Shown here piece after piece: positions 232-59,400 of a stretch of DNA of 64,000 nt (position 1 is the stretch's first letter; every line of letters begins with the position of its first letter). Below the pieces are notes generated by a model. That model saw only the letters and a list, made by a program, of their open reading frames with translations. It was not told the origin of the DNA and did no database searches. The translations under genes were made by a program, and so were the position numbers. This stretch comes from Antedon mediterranea. Lineage: Eukaryota; Animalia; Echinodermata. Location: contig NC_092676.1 in the NCBI RefSeq assembly GCF_964355755.1, positions 30,003,499 to 30,067,498 of the forward strand, read 5' to 3'.

Positions 232-372
232 GCATAGGACATATTAGCTAAACATGTGTCTACTGGACTAACTATGGATTTATCTTTAATCACCATTAGC
301 GTGTAACTCGGCAATTACAGGATCGATAAACTATTTAATAATTAATAGTTTTATATTTAGCCTTATTTAGTC

Positions 373-1016
373 GTGAGTGACAACCCTGGCACTATGTCAG
401 GATTGAACCCCGGCACTATGTCAGGATTGAACCCTGGCACTATGTCAGGATTGAACCCCGGCACTATGTCAGGATTGAACCCTGGCACTATGTCAGGATT
501 GAACCCCGGCACTATGTCAGGATTGAACCCCGGCACTATGTCAGGATTGAACCCTGGCACTATGTCAGGATTGAACCCTGGCACTATGTCAGGATTGAAC
601 CCTGGCACTATGTCAGGATTGAACCCTGGTACTATGTCAGGATTGAACCCTGGCACTATGTCAGGATTGAACCCTGGCACTATGTCAGGATTGAACCCTG
701 GCACTATGTCAGGATTGAACCCTGGCACTATGTCAGGATTGAACCCTGGCACTATGTCAGGATTGAACCCCGGCACTATGTCAGGATTGAACCCTGGCAC
801 TACAGTATGTCAGGATTGAACCCTGGCACTATGTTAGGATTGAACCCTGGCACTATGTCAGGATTGAACCCTGGCACTATGTCAGGATTGAACCCTGGCA
901 CTATGTCAGGATTGAACCCTGGCACTATGTCAGGATTGAACCCCGGCACTATGTCAGTATTGAACCCCGGCACTATGTCAGGATTGAACCCCGGCACTAT
1001 GTCAGGATTGAACCCC
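373..1016. repeat. 30-bp minisatellite, ~21 tandem copies (unit ACTATGTCAGGATTGAACCCYGGC…); one copy has a 5-bp insertion
   Basis: Direct reading: near-identical 30-mers with C/T variation at one position. The ORF-track 'proteins' on both strands here (NPGTMSGL…, PGFNPDIV…) are repeat translation artefacts. Confidence 0.95.
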
Positions 1017-2623: not shown

Positions 2624-3913
2624 ATGAAATCAACAAGAAGGTATTCATATTTTTCAATCTTGATTGTGGCCGTGTTTATATTTATTTTAATAAGAGCACC
2701 GTACGAGAACAATACAGTGGACAATAGCAGTCATTATTTCGCTAAACCCCTCCATAGGAGTTTTATAGCAATGAGGGGACGTTTATTTTCTAAAAATAAA
2801 CTTGATCCTATGAGTTTACAGCAAAATTCCAGTTTAAATGCTATAAAGCACAAAGGTATACACATCCTGGCTATTGGACGAACAGGTTCGTCTTTCTTGG
2901 GTCAGATTATAGCACAGCATCCTCAGGTATTTTACATGTTTGAACCCGGTCGTATACTTGATAATCAACGGAAGACTCCAGATCAGAAAATTTATAAGAA
3001 CCCAAAGAATTTAGTTAACTATGTTGATATGATCGCGTCTATATACCATTGTAGATTTGATAATATGAAGTCGTACTTGAAAGCAATTATGCAACTTTCT
3101 TTCAATTCGAGACTACAAGAAATTCCAGATTTAACAGAGAAAAATCTTTGTAGGCCCACTAGAGGAGTGTCTCGCCGCAAACAAAATGAGTCTTTATCTA
3201 CGAAATGTGAGCCTGTCAGCCGTGAATTGACGCACAAATGTCAAAATAAAACGTTTACAGTCATCAAAACTATTCGAATTCATAACATCACAAACTTTAC
3301 CAAATTAGTAAACGACGATGATGTTGATTTTAAAATATTACATCTAATACGAGATCCACGAGGCATGATTTTGTCAAATCTCAGAGCTTGGCATAGAGAT
3401 GTGATTCACGCTATGAATGAAGAACACCGTTCTCTTTTTGATGCCAACGACTTACCTTCAGAACTTTACGAGTATTTAAACAACTGGTGTAAAGATTGGA
3501 TAGAAAATGCCGACTTTGGATATTCCAAGATTCCGTCATCACAATACTTGTCAGTCAGATACGAAGACATATCACTTTCTCCAATAGAATCAGCAACAAA
3601 GATATATGCAAAGCTTGGTTTAGGTGCTCTTACAAGTGATATTATTGAATGGATTAATAACAGTACATCCGGGTATAAAGGTGGTTCGTATGCTCTTTCT
3701 CGAAATTCTACTTTGAATGCTGAGAAATGGCGTCGAAGTATGACGTATGAACTCGCTGAACGAATACAAGAAATGGACAATTGTGGAAAGTTTATGGATG
3801 TTTTCGGTTACAAAAAGGTTAAAAGTCCCGAGGAATTGCATGATTCGAGTTTGTCATTGATTGGAAAATATTCGAAATCTTCGTTCAAAGCGCGTAAGAA
3901 CCATAAACCATAA
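2624..3913 (+). CDS. Carbohydrate (Gal/GalNAc/GlcNAc) 6-O-sulfotransferase-like, type II membrane protein, single exon, 429 aa
   Basis: ATG-initiated uninterrupted ORF. N-terminal hydrophobic anchor YSYFSILIVAVFIFILI. PAPS 5'-phosphosulfate-binding motif IGRTGSSFLGQI and 3'-phosphate-binding motif RDPRGMILS, spaced as in the CHST/GlcNAc6ST family. Confidence 0.8.
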   Translation: MKSTRRYSYFSILIVAVFIFILIRAPYENNTVDNSSHYFAKPLHRSFIAMRGRLFSKNKLDPMSLQQNSSLNAIKHKGIHILAIGRTGSSFLGQIIAQHPQVFYMFEPGRILDNQRKTPDQKIYKNPKNLVNYVDMIASIYHCRFDNMKSYLKAIMQLSFNSRLQEIPDLTEKNLCRPTRGVSRRKQNESLSTKCEPVSRELTHKCQNKTFTVIKTIRIHNITNFTKLVNDDDVDFKILHLIRDPRGMILSNLRAWHRDVIHAMNEEHRSLFDANDLPSELYEYLNNWCKDWIENADFGYSKIPSSQYLSVRYEDISLSPIESATKIYAKLGLGALTSDIIEWINNSTSGYKGGSYALSRNSTLNAEKWRRSMTYELAERIQEMDNCGKFMDVFGYKKVKSPEELHDSSLSLIGKYSKSSFKARKNHKP

Positions 3914-20847: not shown

Positions 20848-21849
<1,002 letters not shown>

Positions 21850-28078: not shown

Positions 28079-29050
28079 CTAAAATTGTTCTTCACTACTT
28101 GATTCATCAGTGTCCATCATAATTTCTTGGTAATCTTTTTCTAAGCACGCCATGTCATATCGAGCATCAGTAAACTCGCCTTCTTCCATTCCTTCGCCAA
28201 CATACCAATGGATAAACGCGCGCTTCGCGTACATCAGGTCGAACTTGTGGTCAAGACGCGCCCAGGACTCGGAAATGGCGGTATTATTGCTGATCATGCA
28301 GACGGCACGTTGCATTTTTGCTTGGTCGTCATTTGGAAAGTTTGTCGGAGTTTGGTGGTTTATACTAACTTTAAAACCAGTTGGACACCAGTCAACAAAC
28401 TGAATGTTCTTGTTGTGTCTTAAGTTCGAAACTGCAATATTAACGTCCGTTGGTACTACGTCACCGCGGTAGAGCAGGCAACATGACATGTAGTGACCAT
28501 TCTGATGATTACATTTGACCATTTGACTACCTTTTTCAAAACAGTAGCTGGTAATTTCTGGGATTGAACACGTTTGGTGAAAAGATTTCTCTGAAGATAA
28601 TGTTGGTGCAAAAGCTGACGAAACGAAGTGGATTCTCGGAAAAGGAACTAAGTTTGTTTGGAGCTCACTCATGTCAAAGTTCAAAACTCCTTGGTATCTT
28701 AACGAAGCGGTTATTGACGATATTGTCTGTACAATTAGACGATTTAAGTTCAAGTAGGATGGACGCTCAATGTCAAGATCTCGCCTGCAGATCTCGTAAA
28801 TTGCTTCGTTGTCAAATACAAAAGAACAATCACTCTCATCTACGGCCGATTTCATCGCAAATACTGCATTATATGGCTCTACAACAGCAGTTGAAACGAG
28901 AGGTGACGGATGAATGGAAAACATAAACTTATTTATCTTGGAAAATTCTTTAGAAAGCTCGTCCATTAGTAAGGACGTGAAGCCGGAACCTGTCCCTCCT
29001 CCTAAACTGTTGAATATTAGACATCCTTGTAAACTGCTGCACTGGTCGGC
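28079..29050 (-). CDS. Divergent alpha-tubulin-like paralog, last coding exon
   Basis: Acceptor ttatctttttag|GCCGACCAGTGCAGC…. Encodes [36 protein letters not shown]…[42 protein letters not shown]. Retains GGGTGSG and the NxDxxE catalytic-loop Glu but is otherwise far more diverged than the neighbour copy, with no C-terminal Tyr. Confidence 0.85.
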
Positions 29051-33264: not shown

Positions 33265-36200
33265 ATGGACAAACTATCAAAGATAGTAATTTTGTTGGTT
33301 ATTTATAGCATTTTTATGAGCATCGGATATATCAAATATTACGGAGAACGACCAATCAACAAGCTTCCAACAACATCATGTTGCCGCTCAGACTCTAATA
33401 CGACGTCAGCTAAAAAAGGTAGACCTATAGGATTGTTTACGGTACGAGAGTAGAAGTTATGAAACATGGTTATAGCATTGAGTACCGACTTACTAATCTT
33501 TCCTGGGTGATGGTAGTCATTACTACTTTATTATTACGTCACAGTATTGTTATTGGGAATCCCAACAAAGGGGTTTCCTAATCGTAATAAAATATAGTAA
33601 TGTATGCGTACATTATCTTTTATGTATGTTTTTGTTTAACATTTAGCATTTTCCTAATATCAGAATTATTAGATTGACTGTCAGGCTAGAGGTATTCCCA
33701 ATCCCCCGAGTGATTTTCATTTTCTTGTTTTTTGTTTGCAGGCCTAATTTTCACCTTTATTATGGCAATTAGAGTTACGAGCATTTATTAACTTTACCTT
33801 TGATCCAGCCTCCCTAATAGTTTGCATACAACGTGTTTCTTATTTTTTATGATGGCGATCGATGTCCTGTAATTGTACTTGACGTGAATAGCCATTCATT
33901 ATAGCTTATTCAAATACATAGGCCTTGGTACCTCAATAGACACCATACCCTAAGCAAACAATTTGTAAAGAGAGATTTATTTTCATATACCGATTGGCAA
34001 ACGTAGGCATAACAATGGTTAAGTGGCTTGTATTATAATTGTAAAGTGTACTGAAATGATATATGGTATTTGAATATGATTTTAATTTTACAGAGAAATT
34101 GTTTCTCGATAAGAAATCAAGTGACATGAACAAGTTTATTTTGCCAATCAAATCAGACTCGAAAAACAAGAGTGGGCCTAATAGTATGCCTATTATTAAA
34201 TCAACGAATGGTCGACGAAAGTTTCCTAGGAGGAAAAAGAAGAGATTTTTTTATTGGGAAGAATTAAAACAGACAATGCATTATCTACCTTTAGGCAGCA
34301 CATTTGATACAAACACGGTGAGTTGTATGCATTATCTACCTTTAGGCAGCACATTTGATACAAACACGGTGAGTTGTATGCATTATCTACCTTTAGGCAG
34401 CACATTTGATACAAACACGGTGAGTTGTATATAAGAAAATATGTCATGATTACAAATTTGAATGTTATTACATACTATATAATGAATTTAGGTATTACAC
34501 CAAACGTTTTGAATGTTATTACATACTATATAATGAATTTAGGTATTACACCAAACGTTTTGAATGTTATTACATACTATATAATGAATTTAGGTATTAC
34601 ACCAAACGTTTTGAATGTTATTACATACTATATAATGAATTTAGGTATTACACCAAACGTTTTGAATGTTATTACATACTATAATGAATTTAGGTATTAC
34701 ACCAAACGTTTTGAATGTTATTACATACTATATAATGAATTTAGGTATTACACCAAACGTTTTGAATGTTATTACATACTATAATGAATTTAGGTATTAC
34801 ACCAAACGTTTTGAATGTTATTACATACTATATAATGAATTTAGGTATTACACCAAACGTTTTGAATGTTATTACATACTATAATGAATTTAGGTATTAC
34901 ACCAAACGTTTTGAATGTTATTACATACTATATAATGAATTTAGGTATTACACCAAACGTTTTGAATGTTATTACATACTATATAATGAATTTAGGTATT
35001 ACACCAAACGTTTTGAATGTTATTACATACTATATAATGAATTTAGGTATTACACCAAACGTTTTGAATGTTATTACATACTATATAATGAATTTAGGTA
35101 TTACACCAAACGTTTTGAATGTTTTAAAGAAATTGATGTCTGCCTTTGCAAGTTTCTTGCCGAGTCGTTCAAACCTGCTACAATCTTGCTTGGTGACTGC
35201 ACTGTGACGTCATTCACTGGCTGTCAAACTTCCGAGCAGAAATAAAACAAGAAAACAATGTATAGATATTACAACACTATAATATTGTTAAATCGTTACA
35301 TTTTGTGTATCTAGGAGGAACGAATAATCTTCAACCGGGTACCTAAGTGTGGAAGTCGAACTGTTTTAGATATTTTCAAATATTTAGCGAACAGAAACCA
35401 GTATAATATGATAAGCTCTACAATATATGGCCCTCTTCATCTACCAGAAAATAAAAAGGTAATGTTTTAAATTTGATTCAAAACAATGGTTCTTTTGTCT
35501 TTAAAAAAAAATTTCTGTGAAGTCATCTATATTGGCAAAAAATACGGTTTTCTTTTACGTTCACACCACCCCATGGTAGGACTAATATAAGCCAGTCGTG
35601 ATGGTATAGCGCTTTGATGTTGGATGATTATGATTCAACAACAATTGTTACAAGGGACGACAAAATATAGAGCACACGTATCATAGGTCATATTACAGTT
35701 AAAGTTATTTAATGTTGATTGATTTTTGTTTATCTATTTGTCACAATTTAGGCTTTGATAAAAGAATTAATTCTGGCGGCGGAACCTCCGGTTTTATTCC
35801 AGCGTCATATGCATTTTTTAAGTTTTCCAAAGTAAGTAGGTACTCTTCCCTGATACATAATTTAATCCGATAATCAGCTGTGTCGTGTGTGCGTGCGTGC
35901 ATGTTTTGGTTGGTTTTGGCTTAGGATGAGGGAAGTCAATAGCAAATGCACGACGCACAGTAATGTATCGAAAGTAGTCCTTAGCTAGAAAGAAAAAAAA
36001 AATTCATTATTACCTTATCCATAGCTCATCAAGAGTTAGATATATAAACATAATTCGAGATCCCATAGACAGGTTCATATCGGAGTACTACTTCATACGT
36101 TTTGGCGACGACAGAAATCCTATGAACTTTTCGGGTACAGATCAAGAGAAATATCAGGTAATTCTAATATTATTTATTTGATTGGTTGTAATTTTGACCA

Positions 36201-37484: not shown

Positions 37485-38460
37485 CTTTGGGGATATGGGT
37501 AATGCCTCATGTTAACGCATGCGCAGACTCTCTGAAGCGAATTTGATTTACCGGTTGCTGATCCTACTAATCAATAACTTCTACTACAAATATAAATGTG
37601 TTCTAATAATACAATGTTGTGTTTATATGCTTGTGGTGGGGCGTTTATTCGAGGAAATAAATAAAGGCCATGGATTCGGGAGGCGTTTTATTCAAATATG
37701 TTCTATTGTGGAGTTTATAAAGGTCGCCGTTCGTATTCAAATGAAAAGAGAAATCTTCAATGCAATTTCTCTGATTGTTAATGTTGATCTGAATTACGAT
37801 TATAAAATTGTGCGGATTATAAAACTAATCTAAACATCATGTGTGAAATGGAGATACACCCAAAGAAGGTTCAGACAATGAACTTCCAGTTTTCTATTCT
37901 TTAAATAACCCAATTGCTTTTTATTATTGATTGATGGCGACCATATTTCCTGTATAACTTAACTTAAATAGTATCAAAAGAAGACAGCGAAGTACCGCAC
38001 CACCACCACCGCGCAACACAGCACCACCACCACGTGACGCTTTAATGATTTGGCGCCCTCTATATTAAGTATCTACATAAACTTTCTACCGTATAAAAAC
38101 AGCATGTGCAGCTAGCTAGCTAGCAGCAGCCGGCCAGACAGCAGGTATTCAGCAGCAGCGTGGGTACACGTAAAGGGGGCCTAAAACTAGGCTATAGGCT
38201 ATACCTAGGGAAGGGTACTTAGATTATTATATTTTCTCAATTAGTATAATTATTATATATTGATTTTTATCAATTAATGAATACAGCGTAGGCCTAGTTG
38301 GTAATATATGTTTCTGAATGACGAGATTGAAAAGGCATCGACTTTCTCTCACACAGTTGTTACACTCTAGACTAGTAGTAGGCCTATCGATCATCTATCT
38401 AGGCCCTAGCCTAGTGTAGTAGGCTAGTCCTAGTTAAGCTAGGCATAAGCCTACACTGTA

Positions 38461-40998
38461 GGGGAGAGTGGGGTTGGTTGAATCGGAGGCAGGTTGAATC
38501 AGCCGTATTATTTCAGAAATTACAATTGGGTAAAAATTTGGTTGAACTACCTGGCAATTGGCTGACGTCACTCTACACGCTCACCAAAAATTATTCCGAT
38601 ACACGCTTGTTAACCTATTGTTCTAAAAATCCAGCTCGATTTGTGCCTGTAAGTACATTTTCCAATTTGTAAAGATTTTCGTTTTGTTTATTTATACTGA
38701 TTGTTTTTCCTGAAATCTTTAGTAGTCTTATATAACACATATATTAGGGTAAAATATTATATGATAAGCTTCTTGGTTGAGCCACGTATTTTTTTTCTAT
38801 GACACGAATTAATGCTGTCTGTGCCTATGGGGTTGGTTGAATCAGGTGATGCAACCTACCCCATCACGTGATGCAACCAACCCCAAGATAATAATGTGCA
38901 TTGTTTATGTTAATTTATGTAGTTTTAAACTTTTTCAACTCAATAATAGTAACTATAGAAATGTTCTTATACAGAATAGAAATTTAAAGATGTAAATTGT
39001 AAGAAATTAAACTACAACTACACTAGGCCTAGCCTAAAATTACAGTATTATTATTATTAAGTATTGTAAAAATATAAATAAACATCTTTCAAATAATTTA
39101 CTGTATTACTATAGGCATAGTTATTAAAATTAAATGATGGAGGCTACTATAGCCTATAGGGCCTAGTATACGACTGCCAGCGCTACCTATTTTTTTGTTA
39201 ATTCTAATGATCTTTCGTTTGCATTTTTCAGTTATCAACATACAGTCATGCCTAGAACTCATAAGAGAAAAACCGAACGGGGGAAAAACCCAGAAATGTT
39301 AAAACGAGCAGCACGAATTGTGATATTGGAGAACCTGTCTGTAAGATCAGTGGCAAAAGACTTTGATGTCAATTACAGTACACTCCAAAGACTTGTCAAC
39401 AAACTAAAGAAAGGTATGGATATTAAAATGTATGAAAATATAATAAGGTATTAAAATATTACTATTAGCTAACTGTATACATTAAACTATATTTTCAGAT
39501 GCCGATGGTGCTTTGAATTACCCTCTTGAAGTGACAAGAGCATTAACTGACACACACGTTGGATATGTCCGAAATCGACAGGTGTTTAGTGACAACCAAG
39601 AGGAAATGCTGGTTCAATATATATTGAGAGCTGCTGCTATGTATTTTGGTTTGACGCCGGATGATGTAAGGAAGTTTGCATATGAGCTAGCCATAGCATA
39701 TGAAGTAGATTTGCCACAAAGTTGGACTGAAAACCAGAAAGCAGGGAAGGATTGGTTTTGTTCTTTTTTGAAGCGTCACCCAAATGTTAGTATAAGAGCT
39801 GCAGAAGCGACAACTGATCAACCAGAAGCAGAAGATGAGCCAATTGCAGAAAATGAGCCAGTGGCAGAAAACGAGCCAGTAGCAGAAAATGAGCCATTGG
39901 CAGAAAACGAGCCAGTAGCAGAAAATGAGCCAGTGTCGGAAGATGATTTTGAAATTCCACCACCTATCAATGCAAGTCAACTATCAACACCCAATGAAAT
40001 TTTAGAGGATGAACCGTCCACATCTGCTGCATGCCGAAGATTGCCATTTAGCCCGGAAACTATTCGGCCATTTCCAGTTGCTCCACCAAGAAAAAACAAA
40101 GGCCATGGCAGAAAAACTTTAAAATCTGCAATTCTGACCGACACCCCAGAAAAAGAGGCAATAATGAAAAGGAAATCTGCAAGTAAAAGTAAGGGTAAAT
40201 CAAAATCGAAGTCGAAAACGCCAAACAACACTCAAAAAGAAAAACCAAGTAAGGAAACTGACTGGTATTGTGAAATTTGTGGAGAAAGCTACTCAAATAG
40301 CAAACAGGGAGAAAAGTGGGTAAAGTGTTTAGCGGAGGGTTGTGAAGAATGGTCACATGTGGAGTGCACCGAAAATGGACGCACATTCATTTGCTCGGTT
40401 TGCGAGTAACCAGTTTTTCATGTAAACATAAACATTTACTGTATATACTTAATTACATTTTTTGTTGTGCCAAGTTTGTTCCTGTAATTCTAATATATTA
40501 TTTTAAACAACTCAAATAAACAACTTAGGCTAGTTAAAAAGCCTAACTCTTTAAACAATTCATATTTATGTTATGGTGCTTTTTACGTGTAATAATAACT
40601 AACATTTTAAAAACATAATAGTGCAGCAGCTTTATATATCAGGAAATAGTTTTTTTAATAGTAGTTTATTAATTAATATATATTTGTTATAATGTGGTTT
40701 TCATCTTAATAAATAAATATTAAAGATATCATTGTATTTATTACATATTATTTCATGATTCAACCAACCCCACTATGTGATTCAACCTACCCCGATGAAG
40801 GGGTTGGTTGAATCGGTCGACTCATCTTGGTAATTTGCTTCTAACTTCTAAATATGTTTTCTGATGTCCATATAATTCACTGTGTTGCCTGAAGGAATGT
40901 TAGTGAACATACACTGTTAATTACAGCTTAACCAATGCAACCAAAAAAAAATTATGGTCAAAAATAGAAAATTTGATTCAACCAACCCCACTCTCCCC
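38461..40998. mobile_element. pogo/Tigger-like (Tc1-mariner superfamily) DNA transposon derivative, 2538 bp, 24-bp perfect TIRs, TA target-site duplication
   Basis: Left end TA|GGGGAGAGTGGGGTTGGTTGAATC (38461-38484); right end GATTCAACCAACCCCACTCTCCCC|TA (40975-40998) is an exact reverse complement. Subterminal hairpin copies of GGGGTTGGTTGAATC at 38825-38885 and 40755-40830. Internal ORF encodes CENP-B/pogo-type DNA-binding domains. Confidence 0.7.
39248..40409 (+). CDS. Element-encoded protein, 358 aa, 2 exons (39248-39413, 39499-40409): psq-type HTH + CENP-B/Tc5-type HTH, acidic EPVAEN repeat, C-terminal C4HC3 (PHD-like) zinc finger; no DDE catalytic domain
   Basis: ATG 39248. MLKRAARIVILENLSVRSVAKDFDVNYSTLQRLVNK (psq HTH). 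Donor AAAG|GTATGG, acceptor ttttcag|AT. RQVFSDNQEEMLVQYI…LTPDDVRKFAYELA…QSWTENQKAGKDWFCSFLKRHPNVSIRAAEATT (HTH_Tnp_Tc5/CENP-B). Six 18-bp repeats GAGCCAGTAGCAGAAAAC. Ends WYCEICGESYSNSKQGEKWVKCLAEGCEEWSHVECTENGRTFICSVCE*. Confidence 0.7.
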
Positions 40999-41405
40999 TA
41001 CTCTAAGTGCTGCTTAGGTAGGTATCTATTTACAGCAAGTCAAATGGCTGAGCGGTTAAGGCAGGGACACCAGGCCTTATTAGAGCTGTACATATTAAAT
41101 AGCTAATATAGTTAGTATCGAGAATTATTAATATTATTACGTTAAATAATGTAGGCCTCCTATTTAGGCCTAGCTAAGCTAGGCCTACAGCTAGCTAGGC
41201 CTATTTTAATAAGGTTTTGATTTAGACTAGGCTACACCTAGTCTATCTAGCTAGTCTAGCCTAGGCCTTTCTAGCTAAATAGGCCTATAATAATATTATA
41301 CTATTTATTAAGGGACAAGTCTTACTAATGGTGTAGCCATGGGTGGGCCATATTTCTATATTTGACATTTATTAACATTTCTTTTCTTACATAGGTACAT
41401 AAATC

Positions 41406-56400: not shown

Positions 56401-59400
56401 ATGGACAAAAGTTCTTTTTTGCCTATTTTCCTGATATACACAGTAAAGCAAACACATTGAATACTCCACGGGTAATGTTATTTTAATTTTTTTTTAAATA
56501 TTTCTTTTCAAAATTTTCATTTTCAAAATATATATGTACTGTATATTCGGCAATAAGTGTTGACAAATTTTACCCTTTTCTGTACTATATGCTGTAGTTT
56601 TTTTCCGAAAAATATGTTAAAAGTTGTTAATTTATATACTGATATCAAATATTACAAAACAAAAATTTGTGTTTTTAAGTCTTTAGATTCCACCAAGCAG
56701 CAAATGTTCAAGTCAATGAACGGAGAACAGCAGCCGTACCCAACAAACCCAGAATGCAATGCTCTCAATTCCAGTTTATACGAGCAGACAATTCTTCTAG
56801 GGTGTTACCATAATAAAATGTCTTACTTTGGCGGTTTTATAACAGACATGCACCCATCTTTACCTTTCTACAATCTATCTCAAGTGATGACAAGGCAGTT
56901 GTGTTTGGATCATTGCAGGTAATGATTCTCATAGACTATATTTCCAACTTCTTCATTGTCATACTATCAACAATTGATTATTGATTGACAGAACTATGAG
57001 GCCCACTAGCTAGCCTACTGTAAAGTAGTGGCTGCGTGTGTGACAGTGGCTGAACTAGTACACCGGGGTAACCTCCTACTCGTCTTGAAAAATGTACTGG
57101 GTTCTTTAAAGTGCACATGAGTTAGATGTGTACACTGGACCTATGGTTTATAGTTCCTTATCCGAGAAGACTCTACTCTACCACCAGAACCATGGAGCGA
57201 GTGAGCCTCGAATGTGTTTTAATCTCTCTGCCAGGTCACTCGCTCAACATACATACATGCTATCAAGAATCTACCAATAAAACTCCTTTTTCAATCAATA
57301 AAATCAATCAATCAATGTCTTGATGAACTTTCAAATCAGTAATAGTGTGTATTTATACTTCCTAGTGATAGAAGATATGATTATGCAGGCCTGCTGAAGG
57401 GTGCTATCTGTTTGTGTGGGACTGAAGAGCAATTCATGCAATACTATCAAAATAGAACATTTGAATTGAATGGCACTTTACATCATGCAACCCTTGATCA
57501 TTGTAGTACACTCTGTACAGGTACATAAAGCTCTGTCTACACTACAACCCTTGATCATTGTAGTACACTCTGTACAGGTACATAAAGCTCTGTCTACACT
57601 ACAACCCTTGATCATTGTAGTACACTCTGTACAGGTACATACAGCTCTGTCTACACTACAAACTAGTTTGATGCAACCCTTGATCATTGTAGTACACTCT
57701 GTACAGGTACATAAATCTCTGTCTACACTACAACCCTTGATCATTGTAGTACACTCTGTACAGGTACATAAAGCTCTGTCTACACTACAACCCTTGATCA
57801 TTGTAGTACACTCTGTACAGGTACATACAGCTCTGTCTACACTACAAACTAGTTTGATGCAACCCTTGATCATTGTAGTACACTCTGTACAGGTACATAA
57901 AGCTCTGTCTACACTACAAACTAGTTTGATGCAACCCTTGATCATTGTAGTACACTCTGTACAGGTACATAAAGCTCTGTCTACACTACAAACTAGTTTG
58001 ATGCAACCCTTGATCATTGTAGTACACTCTGTACAGGTACATAAAGCTCTGTCTACACTACAACCCTTGATCATTGTAGTACACTCTGTACAGGTACATA
58101 AAGCTCTGTCTACACTACAACCCTTGATCATTGTAGTACACTCTGTACAGGTACATACAGCTCTGTCTACACTACAAACTAGTTTGATGCAACCCTTGAT
58201 CATTGTAGTACACTCTGTACAGGTACATAAAGCTCTGTCTACACTACAAACTAGTTTGATGCAACCCTTGATCATTGTAGTACACTCTGTACAGGTACAT
58301 AAAGCTCTGCCTACACTACAAACTAGTTTGATGCAACCCTTGATCATTGTAGTACACTCTGTACAGGTACATAAAGCTCTGTCTACACTACAAACTAGTT
58401 TGATGCAACCCTTGATCATTGTAGTACACTCTGTACAGGTACATAAAGCTCTGTCTACACTACAAACTAGTTTGATGTGTCTACTGTATATATGAGCACA
58501 TTGCATTTTTGTGTCATAAAAAGTTTAGTGTAGACAGAGCTTTAGACCAGGGAGTTGTAAAATTATTTTACAACTCCCTGTTTAGAAATACTTAGTTTTA
58601 TATGTTAATTTGACCAGGGAGTTGTAAAATTTTACCACTCCCTGATTTGACATCCTAGATTTTTTTCATGTTATATATTTCAAAGTAAAAGTTTCTCTCT
58701 TTATTATTATTTTTTTTAAATTTCTTTTTTATAGTTCTATTATCAATTTATAATATTTTAGAGGACATAAATATTGATTGTTTTATTGAATTTCGTTCTT
58801 TTTTTAAAATGTATGTATCACTATGATACATTCTGTTTGGATTATCTTTTTACGTAACCAATTACATTGTGAATGTGTGTGTCTTTTAGGTGAAAATGCC
58901 TCTTGTGGGTCGATGGAATTTGCTTTACTGTATGGTCCAATACCTGGATCTGTTCCTAAACAACAATGTGACTGGTATTCAGGATTGTATGATGAAACTG
59001 AGGTATAGCAATTGTCTAATCTGTAAATTTGATTATATCATTATAACATAATATAACATTGATAACAGCACAGGTATTTAATTATATTAATATTCGATAA
59101 ATTTAATTTTTAGGATGTGTTTGTGGTAGAATTCAGTTTATCAATTCATTCATTGGCTACTAAGGGTATAGAGGAATACCTACACTTACAAGTAACATAC
59201 GATCATGGAGAAAACAAAACAAGCACACTTCTACCGTTAGCCCCCTATAAAATAGAGGTATGCACATTTATACTTTCACTGAGGACGATCGAAGCATATT
59301 GATAGAATTTAACTTTTCAGAACTGCATACGTGGTGTACTGCATACGTGGTGTACTGCATACGTGGTGTACTGCATACGTGGTGTACTGCATACGTGGTG

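What the first reader, a model, noticed from the sequence alone, without database searches (positions are those of the whole stretch)
38461..40998. pogo/Tigger-like element whose ORF keeps the CENP-B-type DNA-binding module but swaps the DDE transposase core for an acidic repeat + PHD-like zinc finger
The 24-bp perfect TIRs with flanking TA-TA are the hallmark of Tc1/mariner/pogo insertions, which fixes the element boundaries. The spliced 358-aa ORF has psq-HTH and Tc5/CENP-B HTH domains, as in the N-terminus of pogo transposases. These are followed by six EPVAEN-type acidic repeats and a C4HC3 finger (WYCEICG…CSVCE), with no DDE/D motifs anywhere. It is either a non-autonomous element encoding a TIR-binding regulator/inhibitor, or a snapshot of transposase domestication (CENP-B/Jerky-like) still inside its TIRs. 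Subterminal hairpins (GGGGTTGGTTGAATC…GATTCAACCAACCCC) suggest conserved transposase-binding sites.
Basis: partly seen in the sequence, partly recalled or inferred. Interest (0 to 1): 0.75.

Follow-up and report, generated by a model that had tools for sequence, protein, structure and literature searches.

The report
Catalytic-domain-deleted pogo transposon copy
This is a young, non-autonomous copy of a pogo-type DNA transposon in the feather star Antedon mediterranea that has lost its cutting (DDE) domain by an in-frame internal deletion; it kept its DNA-binding domain and a PHD zinc finger that is native to this transposase lineage, so it is an ordinary kind of object with some instructive details.

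Summary
[quoted passage not shown] It also has six 18-bp acidic repeats, a C4HC3 finger, no DDE domain, and repeated 15-mers near both ends.

The "swap" reading is wrong. Full-length relatives (576-623 aa, DD35D) from insects carry the same N-terminal DNA-binding domain, then DDE_1. After that come the same FSPExIRP...KSAILTDTPEK motif, a basic stretch and the same C-terminal finger. The window copy simply lacks about 290 residues of catalytic domain. Its acidic repeat lies in the variable post-DDE linker, where some DDE-bearing relatives also have tandem repeats.

The ends match full-length elements closely. They share TA|GGGGAG..GGGG termini and a nine-site layout at near-identical positions in crinoid, stick insect and snail elements.

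The best reading is a recently mobilised internal-deletion derivative, moved in trans. Its DDE-less protein could occupy the transposase sites as the P-element KP protein does, but this is untested.

DDE-less forms of this kind arose independently in several animals, including an apparently immobilised serrasalmid fish gene.

Novelty: new member of a known kind. Interest is moderate to low.

The parts
38459..38460 (.). Left TA, one copy of the target-site duplication
   Evidence: Read directly. TA also flanks both ends of the related Prorops, Bacillus and Gigantopelta elements.
38461..38484 (+). Left terminal inverted repeat, GGGGAGAGTGGGGTTGGTTGAATC. Site 1 is its inner 15 nt, 38470-38484.
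   Evidence: By my count from the aligned ends, 19 of 24 bases match the TIR of the full-length Bacillus rossius element.
38486..38500 (+). Site 2, a degenerate copy of the 15-mer (GAGGCAGGTTGAATC)
   Evidence: (D5). A copy sits at the same element position (26-28) in the Bacillus, Prorops and Gigantopelta elements.
38649..39231 (+). Candidate 5'-UTR intron (GTAAGT donor, polypyrimidine-AG acceptor 16 nt before the ATG). It contains the left site cluster.
   Evidence: Inference from sequence. GT donors sit at element position 188-189 in Antedon, Bacillus and Prorops, and an acceptor lies just before the ATG in all four elements. No transcript evidence is available.
38829..38884 (.). Left subterminal site cluster: sites 38829-38843 (+), 38848-38862 (-) and 38870-38884 (-), which form a hairpin-like palindrome
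   Evidence: (I2). Element positions 369/388/410 compare with 368/397/419 in the Bacillus element.
39248..39413 (+). Coding exon 1 (aa 1-55 plus the first base of codon 56). HTH_psq spans aa 15-51 (39290-39400).
   Evidence: AF2 pLDDT about 90.
39414..39498 (+). Intron, phase 1, GT..AG, 85 nt
   Evidence: The same junction is in XP_071950522.1. A phase-1 intron lies at the aligned residue in the Bacillus rossius element.
39499..40409 (+). Coding exon 2 (aa 56-358 plus the TAA stop)
39591..39791 (+). HTH_Tnp_Tc5 (CENP-B-type second HTH), aa 87-153
   Evidence: Pfam 30.8 bits, above the gathering score; pLDDT about 90.
39813..39818 (+). Left edge of the internal deletion. Homology to the N-terminal part of full-length relatives ends at aa 161 (nt 39815), where they continue into DDE_1 (…EATS|LSRATSFN…).
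39822..39946 (+). 18-bp tandem repeat, about 6.5 copies, encoding EP[IVL]AEN. It lies in the variable acidic linker that follows the DDE domain in relatives.
   Evidence: (D1, D2). Tandem repeats occur in the same linker of DDE-bearing P0054, P0056 and P0061.
40047..40160 (+). Conserved C-terminal motif FSPETIRPFPVAPPRK…KSAILTDTPEKEAI (aa 239-276), followed by a K/S-rich, NLS-like stretch (aa 277-309)
   Evidence: Aligned with DDE-bearing relatives. The motif has locally high pLDDT. Its function is unknown, and the NLS reading is inference.
40269..40403 (+). PHD-type C4HC3 zinc finger, C313-C357
   Evidence: All eight Zn ligands and W329 are invariant in the family; W340 is invariant and >=90% conserved. 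The family profile hits solved PHD fingers (ARID4 E 3.8e-5, MLL1 PHD3 E 4.2-4.8e-5, BPTF 5e-5). The AF2 model has pLDDT about 91, and Foldseek hits are almost all PHD fingers.
40515..40520 (+). AATAAA, a candidate polyadenylation signal beginning 106 nt after the stop codon
   Evidence: Read directly. Inference only.
40757..40814 (.). Right subterminal site cluster: 40757-40771 (-), 40779-40793 (-) and 40800-40814 (+)
   Evidence: (I14, I20). Distances from the right end are 227/205/184, identical in the Gigantopelta element and 229/207/187 in the Bacillus element.
40975..40998 (-). Right terminal inverted repeat, 24 of 24 complementary to the left one. It contains site 9 (40975-40989).
40999..41000 (.). 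Right TA, the second copy of the target-site duplication

Best explanation
The element at 38461-40998 is a non-autonomous, internally deleted copy of a pogo-superfamily DNA transposon in the genome of Antedon mediterranea.

Its parent family encodes a transposase of about 580-620 aa. That protein has an HTH_psq and an HTH_Tnp_Tc5 DNA-binding domain, then a DDE_1 catalytic domain (DD35D) and a variable linker. Its C-terminus carries a conserved FSPExIRP…KSAILTDTPEK motif, a basic stretch and a PHD finger.

One in-frame deletion of roughly 290 codons removed the catalytic domain and left everything else, including both TIRs and all nine copies of the 15-bp site.

Shown:
- the anatomy of the element;
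- homology of both protein halves to DDE-bearing relatives;
- absence of any DDE remnant;
- conservation of the end architecture;
- at least two near-identical copies on different chromosome-scale contigs.

Inferred:
- The copy was mobilised recently, in trans, by a full-length transposase that recognises the 15-bp sites.
- Its own product cannot cut DNA.
- If expressed, that product should enter the nucleus and occupy the same sites through its intact DNA-binding domain, competing with active transposase much as the KP protein does for P elements.
- The PHD finger may additionally tether it to chromatin.

I put the structural identity at about 0.9. I put the idea that the protein acts as an inhibitor at about 0.35, more likely as a by-product than as an adaptation.
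For: Protein homology:
- The N-terminal 161 aa match residues 1 to about 155 of the full-length relatives. The C-terminal part (from aa 228-239 to 358) matches their last 120-140 residues. Their residues from about 156 to 440 (DDE_1) have no counterpart in the window.
- Relatives have DDE_1 plus a weak PHD hit. The spacing is DD35D in 58 of 59.
- Of 185 retrieved proteins, 56 have N-terminus, DDE and C-terminus together.

End architecture:
- TA|GGGGAG…GGGG termini are shared with the full-length Prorops element (three copies over 99.8% identical, whose boundaries fall exactly at TA+TIR) and with the Bacillus element.
- The nine-site layout is shared to within a few bp (shuffle expectation about 0.1 site per element).
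- The intron position and phase are shared with the Bacillus element.

Youth and copy number:
- The TIRs are perfect.
- P0001 is 98% identical over the aligned residues.
- It sits on a 31.9-Mb contig, whereas the window's own gene XP_071955806.1 is on a 30.6-Mb contig.

KP precedent: PMC7776569.
Against: - No full-length (DDE-bearing) Antedon copy was found. None is in the window, and none is among annotated proteins above 50% identity. The Antedon assembly itself could not be searched.
- There is no expression evidence and no test of selection on the ORF. With perfect TIRs, the intact ORF can be explained by youth alone.
- The right edge of the deletion cannot be placed exactly, because the linker is not alignable.
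- DNA binding to the 15-mers and any inhibitory effect are inferred from the KP precedent, not tested.
Confidence: 0.8

Rival explanations
1. Inert relic. This is the same deletion derivative, but the ORF is not expressed or has no activity, and it is intact only because the copy is young. The element matters only as a passenger that titrates transposase through its ends.
For: The TIRs are perfect and the paralogue is 98% identical over the aligned residues, so little time has passed for decay. Deleted copies with different breakpoints occur in many species, as expected from random abortive repair. No evidence of selection could be obtained.
Against: The deletion is in frame and removes almost exactly one domain while sparing the DNA-binding domain, the NLS-like stretch and the PHD finger. 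NCBI annotates the paralogue as a protein-coding gene with the same splice. Similar DDE-less forms recur in at least six lineages, and one seems to be retained in fishes. Annotation bias towards open ORFs could explain most of this.
Confidence: 0.4
2. Domain swap or exon capture. The DDE core was replaced by foreign sequence, an acidic repeat plus a PHD finger captured from a host gene.
For: The architecture looks chimeric when this copy is viewed alone. Pfam gives only sub-threshold PHD hits.
Against: The same C-terminal motif and finger follow the DDE_1 domain in dozens of full-length relatives from insects, fishes, Hydra and metagenomes. Tandem repeats also occur in the linker of DDE-bearing members.
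Confidence: 0.03
3. Nascent host gene. This copy is being domesticated as a sequence-specific DNA-binding and chromatin-reading factor of the CENP-B/Jerky type, and its TIRs are merely not yet decayed.
For: A DDE-less derivative with the same architecture is kept as a 365-369-aa ORF in five serrasalmid fish genera. It shows no recognisable TIRs at the Colossoma locus.
Against: This copy has perfect TIRs, TA flanks and nine intact sites, which are the hallmarks of a mobile copy. A second, differently deleted copy lies on another chromosome. No orthologue evidence exists.
Confidence: 0.05
4. The element is autonomous after all, with a catalytic domain that was missed because it is divergent, on the other strand, or in further exons.
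For: None found.
Against: Six-frame tblastn with 31 relatives gives no DDE match anywhere in the 64 kb. A clade-specific DDE HMM covers 0 positions. Pfam gives no DDE hit at E up to 1. The region between the two homologous halves is 66 codons of low-complexity sequence that AF2 predicts as disordered.
Confidence: 0.01

Closest known systems
Full-length pogo-superfamily elements of the same clade: the Bacillus rossius LOC134529495 element (P0004; L004 2447-5364) and the Prorops nasuta 'tigger transposable element-derived protein 6-like' element (P0002; L001 2451-5131)
   Same: TA target-site duplication; a 24-nt TIR starting GGGGAG…GGGG (19 of 24 bases identical to Bacillus, my count); the nine-site layout at the same positions; the phase-1 intron position (Bacillus); the N-terminal psq and Tc5 HTH domains; and the C-terminal FSPE…TDTPEK motif, basic stretch and PHD finger (38-46% amino-acid identity).
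   Different: Those elements carry the DDE_1 (DD35D) domain and are 2.7-2.9 kb long. The window copy lacks about 290 codons of it and cannot transpose on its own.
P-element KP and other internally deleted, repressor-encoding non-autonomous elements (PMC7776569)
   Same: An internal deletion leaves the transposon ends and an ORF that keeps the site-specific DNA-binding domain but not the catalytic domain. The transposase has multiple binding sites near both ends.
   Different: It belongs to a different superfamily (THAP/P versus pogo). KP's DNA binding and inhibition were shown experimentally, whereas here both are inferred. This ORF also keeps a C-terminal PHD finger.
Passer family of pogo (DD35D; PMC7386202, PMC9976928)
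   Same: DD35D spacing in the full-length relatives, short TIRs (<30 bp) and TA target-site duplication.
   Different: Passer transposases are 400-500 aa with Brk and HTH motifs, and no C-terminal finger is reported. This clade is about 150 aa longer, has psq and Tc5 HTH domains and a PHD finger, and its TIRs start with GGGG. Family assignment within pogo was not resolved here.
Serrasalmid fish gene annotated 'uncharacterized protein zgc:113274' (P0036, XP_036428835.1)
   Same: The same DDE-less architecture, with DNA-binding domain, repetitive low-complexity linker, KxAILTDT motif and finger. It aligns end to end with the window protein at 36% identity.
   Different: It is an independent loss: its nearest DDE-bearing relatives are fish elements. 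No TIRs are recognisable at the Colossoma locus. It is kept in five genera, so it is probably immobilised or domesticated, and it is not a relative of the Antedon copy by descent of the deletion.
Vertebrate pogo-derived genes (CENP-B, JRK/JRKL, TIGD2-7, POGK, POGZ; PMC7386202)
   Same: Descent from pogo transposases, with retention of the bipartite HTH DNA-binding domain.
   Different: According to that paper most of those genes derive from complete transposase genes, and they are not described there as mobile elements. This copy has lost the DDE domain but still has perfect TIRs.

Membership tests
pogo superfamily (IS630-Tc1-mariner group) transposon | TA target-site duplication | tested here: met
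   TA flanks both ends, and also both ends of the three related elements examined. The Prorops copy boundaries coincide with TA+TIR. Because TA is palindromic, it cannot be separated formally from a TIR extension in this single copy.
pogo superfamily (IS630-Tc1-mariner group) transposon | Short terminal inverted repeats (type 1, up to 40 bp in PMC7386202) | tested here: met
   The TIRs are 24 nt, 100% complementary and unique in the window.
pogo superfamily (IS630-Tc1-mariner group) transposon | N-terminal bipartite HTH DNA-binding domain (CENP-B_N/psq plus HTH_Tnp_Tc5) | tested here: met
   Pfam HTH_Tnp_Tc5 scores 30.8 bits (cut-off 22.2) and HTH_psq 20.5 bits (cut-off 20.4). The helices are predicted confidently.
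pogo superfamily (IS630-Tc1-mariner group) transposon | DDE_1 catalytic domain with a DDD/E triad | tested here: not met
   It is absent from this copy. It is present as DD35D in the relatives that match both halves of the ORF. The copy is therefore filed as a non-autonomous derivative, not as an autonomous member.
PHD zinc finger | C4HC3 ligand pattern with PHD-type spacing, and Trp two residues before the His | tested here: met
   The pattern is C313-x2-C316-x15-C332-x4-C337-x4-H342-x2-C345-x8-C354-x2-C357, with W340 two residues before the His. The ligands are invariant in 28 family members.
PHD zinc finger | Significant profile similarity to established PHD fingers | tested here: met
   The family profile searched against PDB sequences gives ARID4 PHD E 3.8e-5, MLL1 PHD3 4.2e-5 and BPTF PHD 5e-5, each over the whole finger. 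The single sequence scores below Pfam's PHD cut-off (10.5 bits against 24).
PHD zinc finger | Cross-brace fold | tested here: inconclusive
   The AF2 model of the finger has pLDDT about 91. The Foldseek top hits are almost all PHD fingers (AL3 PHD probability 1.00), but the best E-value is 3.3e-3 and none reaches 1e-3.
PHD zinc finger | Zinc binding and a histone-tail or other ligand | not testable with these tools
   The family has aromatic residues at three of the four MLL1 PHD3 cage positions (the Y1576, M1585 and W1594 equivalents). This rests on the alignment and the cage definition in PMC8022399. It is a lead only.
KP-type repressor-encoding deletion derivative | An internal deletion that keeps the ends and the DNA-binding domain and removes the catalytic domain | tested here: met
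KP-type repressor-encoding deletion derivative | The product binds the transposase sites and inhibits transposition | not testable with these tools
   This needs EMSA or footprinting and a transposition assay.
Domesticated pogo-derived host gene (CENP-B/JRK/TIGD type) | Loss of TIRs and TSD, with a fixed single orthologous locus | tested here: not met
   The TIRs are perfect with TA flanks. A second, differently deleted copy lies on another contig.
MITE | Small (hundreds of bp) and non-coding | tested here: not met
   The element is 2538 bp with an intact 358-aa ORF.

The most novel reading that the evidence does not exclude
The DDE-less 'DNA-binding domain plus PHD finger' ORF is not an accident of one deletion. 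On this reading, this pogo clade repeatedly gives rise to TIR-bounded, coding, catalytically dead elements. Examples are the copies in a crinoid and a snail, and DDE-less proteins in a leech, a Drosophila species, beetles and a butterfly. Their protein would occupy the nine precisely spaced transposase sites and, through an H3K4me-type PHD cage, bind chromatin, so that it acts as a selected trans-dominant regulator or hyperparasite. Such elements would also be the raw material for host genes like the serrasalmid 'zgc:113274' protein.
Probability: 0.2. Interest if true: 0.65.

Novelty: new member of a known kind. Interest (0 to 1): 0.35.

Why it matters
The copy itself is a routine product of DNA-transposon decay. 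What it led to is more useful in three ways.

1. It belongs to a widespread animal pogo clade whose transposase ends in a PHD finger. The pogo surveys I could read do not mention this feature (PMC7386202, PMC9976928; searches).
2. The cis-architecture of this clade has nine sites at almost the same base positions in a crinoid, an insect and a snail. That points to a tightly constrained transpososome geometry.
3. DDE-less derivatives that keep the DNA-binding domain and the PHD finger have arisen repeatedly, and one appears to be retained as a fish gene. That gene is absent from the published list of vertebrate pogo-derived genes.

These points give concrete material for testing how truncated transposases regulate their families and how they become host genes.

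Tried and rejected
- DNA of the paralogous Antedon copy (P0001): not on record. The spliced window protein could not be looked up. I therefore have no copy-to-copy DNA comparison, no dN/dS, and no check of whether P0001's larger gap is genomic.
- Empty-site search in the window: no match.
- tRNA and Rfam scans of the element and its flanks: nothing.
- Foldseek with the whole 358-aa model: no significant hit, only weak CENP-B, LCoR-HTH and PHD matches. The C-terminal model did better.
- Literature: I found no paper on a PHD finger in pogo transposases and none on zgc:113274.
- A broad teleost orthologue set for the fish gene was not recovered. Only serrasalmids plus a Prochilodus fragment appeared, so I claim conservation only within that group.
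- A single ancient DDE-less lineage was considered and rejected. Breakpoints differ between lineages, and in an NJ tree each DDE-less lineage has DDE-bearing nearest neighbours. That tree has long branches and no support values.
- Assignment to Passer, Tigger or pogoR could not be done without reference sequences.
Full report

Yes. The 24-mer GGGGAGAGTGGGGTTGGTTGAATC occurs exactly twice in the 64-kb window, at 38461-38484 (+) and 40975-40998 (-). None is expected in shuffles. The perfect inverted repeat extends to 27 nt because it includes the flanking TA and one more base (I1).

Exon 1 is 39248-39413, a GT..AG intron spans 39414-39498, and exon 2 is 39499-40409, giving 358 aa.

Pfam finds HTH_Tnp_Tc5 (aa 87-153, 30.8 bits, above cut-off) and HTH_psq (aa 15-51, 20.5 bits, at cut-off). 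It finds only sub-threshold PHD-type hits and no DDE model. The acidic repeat is an 18-bp tandem array of about 6.5 units at 39822-39946. The 15-mer GGGGTTGGTTGAATC occurs 8 times at up to 2 mismatches, all inside the element, against 0.06 expected. A ninth, degenerate copy lies at 38486-38500.

**2. Where the window comes from**

The single-exon ORF at 2624-3913 is identical to XP_071955806.1, carbohydrate sulfotransferase 1-like of Antedon mediterranea, a crinoid, on a 30.6-Mb contig.

The best protein match to the element's ORF is XP_071950522.1 (P0001, 254 aa) from the same species, on a different 31.9-Mb contig. It is 98% identical over the aligned residues and has the same exon junction, but lacks aa ~160-263. 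So at least two near-identical copies with different internal gaps exist on different chromosomes. I could not fetch P0001's DNA.

**3. What the ORF is**

All other strong matches are proteins of 576-623 aa annotated as Tigger/pogo-like, with DDE_1. They come mostly from insects, and also from fishes, Hydra and metagenomes.

Alignment and tblastn show the following:
- Their residues 1 to about 155 map to 39248-39815.
- Their last 120-140 residues map to 40014/40047-40406.
- Their residues from about 156 to 440 (the catalytic domain) match nothing in the window in any frame.

HMMs built from seven full-length relatives cover the window protein over 152 of 153 N-terminal positions and 124 C-terminal-profile positions. 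They cover 0 of 287 DDE positions.

The full-length proteins all carry, after DDE_1, a variable linker. This is followed by FSPExIRPxPKAxPRK…KSAILTDTPEK, a lysine-rich stretch, and C-x2-C…W-x2-C-x2-C-x2-W-x-H-x2-C…C-x2-C. Of the 185 proteins collected, 56 have N-terminus, DDE and C-terminus together. Their catalytic triad spacing is DD35D in 58 of 59 cases.

The finger was therefore not acquired in place of the DDE core; it is the normal C-terminus of this clade. Tandem peptide repeats also occur in the post-DDE linker of DDE-bearing members P0054, P0056 and P0061. The acidic repeat is therefore best read as part of that fast-evolving native linker. The only structural difference from a full-length gene is one in-frame deletion of about 290 codons.

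**4. The finger is a PHD finger**

- The eight ligands and W329 are invariant across 28 family members, and W340 is conserved in at least 90% of them.
- A profile of the family hits solved PHD fingers over their whole length: ARID4 at 3.8e-5, MLL1 PHD3 at 4.2e-5 and BPTF at 5e-5.
- An AF2 model of the C-terminal 123 aa has pLDDT about 91 over the finger.
- Its Foldseek hits are almost exclusively PHD fingers. The best is the AL3 PHD, with probability 1.00 and E 3.3e-3, but none reaches 1e-3.
- In the HMMER alignment to MLL1 PHD3, three of the four H3K4me3 cage positions are aromatic in the family. The cage is Y1576, Y1581, M1585 and W1594 according to PMC8022399. The family residues are Y/F at the Y1576 position, W329 at M1585 and W340 at W1594. 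This is a lead to a chromatin-reading role, not a demonstration.

**5. The ends tie the copy to autonomous elements**

The Prorops nasuta element is present in three copies that are over 99.8% identical. Their shared sequence stops exactly at TA+TIR. It reads TA|GGGGAGACAGGGGCTAGTTGTTAC … TA.

The Bacillus rossius element reads TA|GGGGAGACCGGGGCTGGTTGTAAC at both ends. By my count from that output, this matches 19 of the 24 bases of the Antedon TIR.

The site map is nearly superimposable:

| Element | Site starts from the left end | Distances from the right end |
|---|---|---|
| Antedon | 10, 26, 369, 388, 410 | 227, 205, 184, 9 |
| Bacillus (full-length) | 10, 26, 368, 397, 419 | 229, 207, 187, 9 |
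| Gigantopelta aegis (DDE-less) | 10, 28, 368, 387 | 227, 205, 184, 9 |

For the Antedon and Gigantopelta rows, positions 26 and 387 come from the looser scan. Site orientations agree across elements at corresponding positions. About 0.1 such site per element is expected by chance.

The Bacillus gene has a phase-1 intron at the residue aligned with the Antedon intron. GT donors at element position 188-189 and an AG just before the ATG recur in Antedon, Bacillus and Prorops. This suggests a conserved 5'-UTR intron that holds the left site cluster. That is my inference, with no transcript data.

**6. How it most likely works**

Shown:
- The copy has every cis feature of the full-length elements.
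- It has no catalytic domain.
- It is young (perfect TIRs, near-identical paralogue).

Inferred:
- It was moved in trans by a full-length transposase of the same family.
- Its own product keeps the bipartite HTH domain, a basic NLS-like stretch and the PHD finger. If made, it should bind the nine sites without cutting.

This is the situation of the P-element KP protein. KP is encoded by an internally deleted element and represses transposition by binding transposase sites (PMC7776569). I rate the structural conclusion at about 0.9 and an inhibitory activity at about 0.35. No full-length Antedon copy, expression data or selection test could be obtained.

**7. Wider pattern**

An exhaustive HMMER search gave 3462 relatives at E up to 1e-3. 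Most full-length ones match in two stretches, N-terminal and C-terminal.

Sixteen of the 185 collected proteins have both ends but no DDE domain:
- Antedon (the window copy and P0001);
- Gigantopelta aegis, XP_041347801.1;
- Helobdella robusta;
- Drosophila ficusphila;
- several beetles (Parnassius apollo P0018 is a further DDE-less form but falls outside this count);
- a metagenome contig;
- a serrasalmid fish protein annotated 'zgc:113274'.

Their breakpoints differ, and in an NJ tree each has DDE-bearing nearest neighbours. I read these as independent losses.

The snail protein sits in a 1932-bp element (L005 3466-5397). It has TA flanks, the same TIR start, the same site layout and a 30-bp tandem repeat right after the second HTH. 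It is a close structural parallel to the window copy.

The fish protein is kept as a 365-369-aa ORF in five genera. It shows no recognisable TIR at the Colossoma locus. Its nearest DDE-bearing relatives are fish elements. It looks like an immobilised or domesticated derivative, but I did not test synteny or selection.

**8. Comparison with known families and novelty**

The copy meets the pogo criteria of TA duplication, short TIRs and a bipartite HTH domain. It fails the DDE criterion, so it is filed as a non-autonomous derivative.

Within pogo, the relatives share DD35D with Passer. However, they are about 150 aa longer and have a psq-type first HTH and the PHD tail, which the Passer descriptions do not mention (PMC7386202, PMC9976928). 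I leave the family unassigned.

As an object, an internally deleted DNA transposon that still encodes its DNA-binding domain is a known kind. The three interesting by-products are the PHD-tailed pogo clade, its base-precise nine-site architecture across phyla, and the recurrent DDE-less derivatives. They raise the interest somewhat but do not make this finding categorically new.

Noticed in passing
window 38461-40998; L004 2447-5364; L005 3466-5397; L001 2451-5131: Nine copies of a 15-bp site sit at nearly identical base positions and in the same orientations in elements from a crinoid, a stick insect, a snail and, in part, a wasp. The 15-mer sequences themselves differ. This implies a strongly constrained transpososome geometry.
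   Followed up: yes
L005 3466-5397 (Gigantopelta aegis, CM027790.1): A second TIR-bounded, TA-flanked, DDE-less element with an intact 345-aa ORF (XP_041347801.1). It has a 30-bp in-frame tandem repeat (GQSTDVPAVA-like, 4 units) directly after the second HTH, a close parallel to the Antedon copy.
   Followed up: partly
L006 6001-7110 (Colossoma macropomum) and cluster members P0179-P0184: A DDE-less protein with pogo DNA-binding domain and PHD finger, annotated 'uncharacterized protein zgc:113274'. It is kept as a 365-369-aa single-exon ORF in five serrasalmid genera, with no recognisable TIRs at the one locus examined. It may be an unreported pogo domestication. It is not among the 12 vertebrate genes listed in PMC7386202.
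   Followed up: partly
window 38649-39231; L004 about 2634-3000; L001 about 2638-2999: Candidate conserved 5'-UTR intron: a GT donor at element position 188-189 and an AG immediately before the ATG in Antedon, Bacillus and Prorops. It encloses the left site cluster. No transcript evidence.
   Followed up: partly
P0034 (787 aa, Logan contig), linker between DDE_1 and the FSPE motif: A full-length relative carries an extra segment of about 170 aa in the linker, with 'KGDGHCLIHA…HYNAV'. From memory this resembles the Cys and His boxes of an OTU-type cysteine protease. I did not check it against any profile.
   Followed up: no
window 20848-21807 (-) and 28079-28966 (-): Two alpha-tubulin-like ORFs lie 7 kb apart on the same strand. 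The second is clearly more divergent (for example, its C-terminal tail is …[11 protein letters not shown]).
   Followed up: no
window 363-819, 34766-35245, 57470-58506: Long tandem arrays that read as open frames on both strands or as repetitive peptides (PGFNPDIV units; YNEFRYYTKRFECYYIL units; QPLIIVVHSVQVHKALSTL units). They are probably satellites or minisatellites rather than genes.
   Followed up: no
window 38360-38450 and 41150-41210: Both flanks of the insertion are rich in short CTAGGCCTAG/AGCTAGG-type palindromic motifs (D7). The element may have landed in a low-complexity or repeat tract.
   Followed up: no
window 41036-41066: The sequence AGTCAAATGGCTGAGCGGTTAAGGC just right of the element looks to me like the 5' part of a class II tRNA or a tRNA-derived SINE head. 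ARAGORN and Rfam call nothing there.
   Followed up: partly
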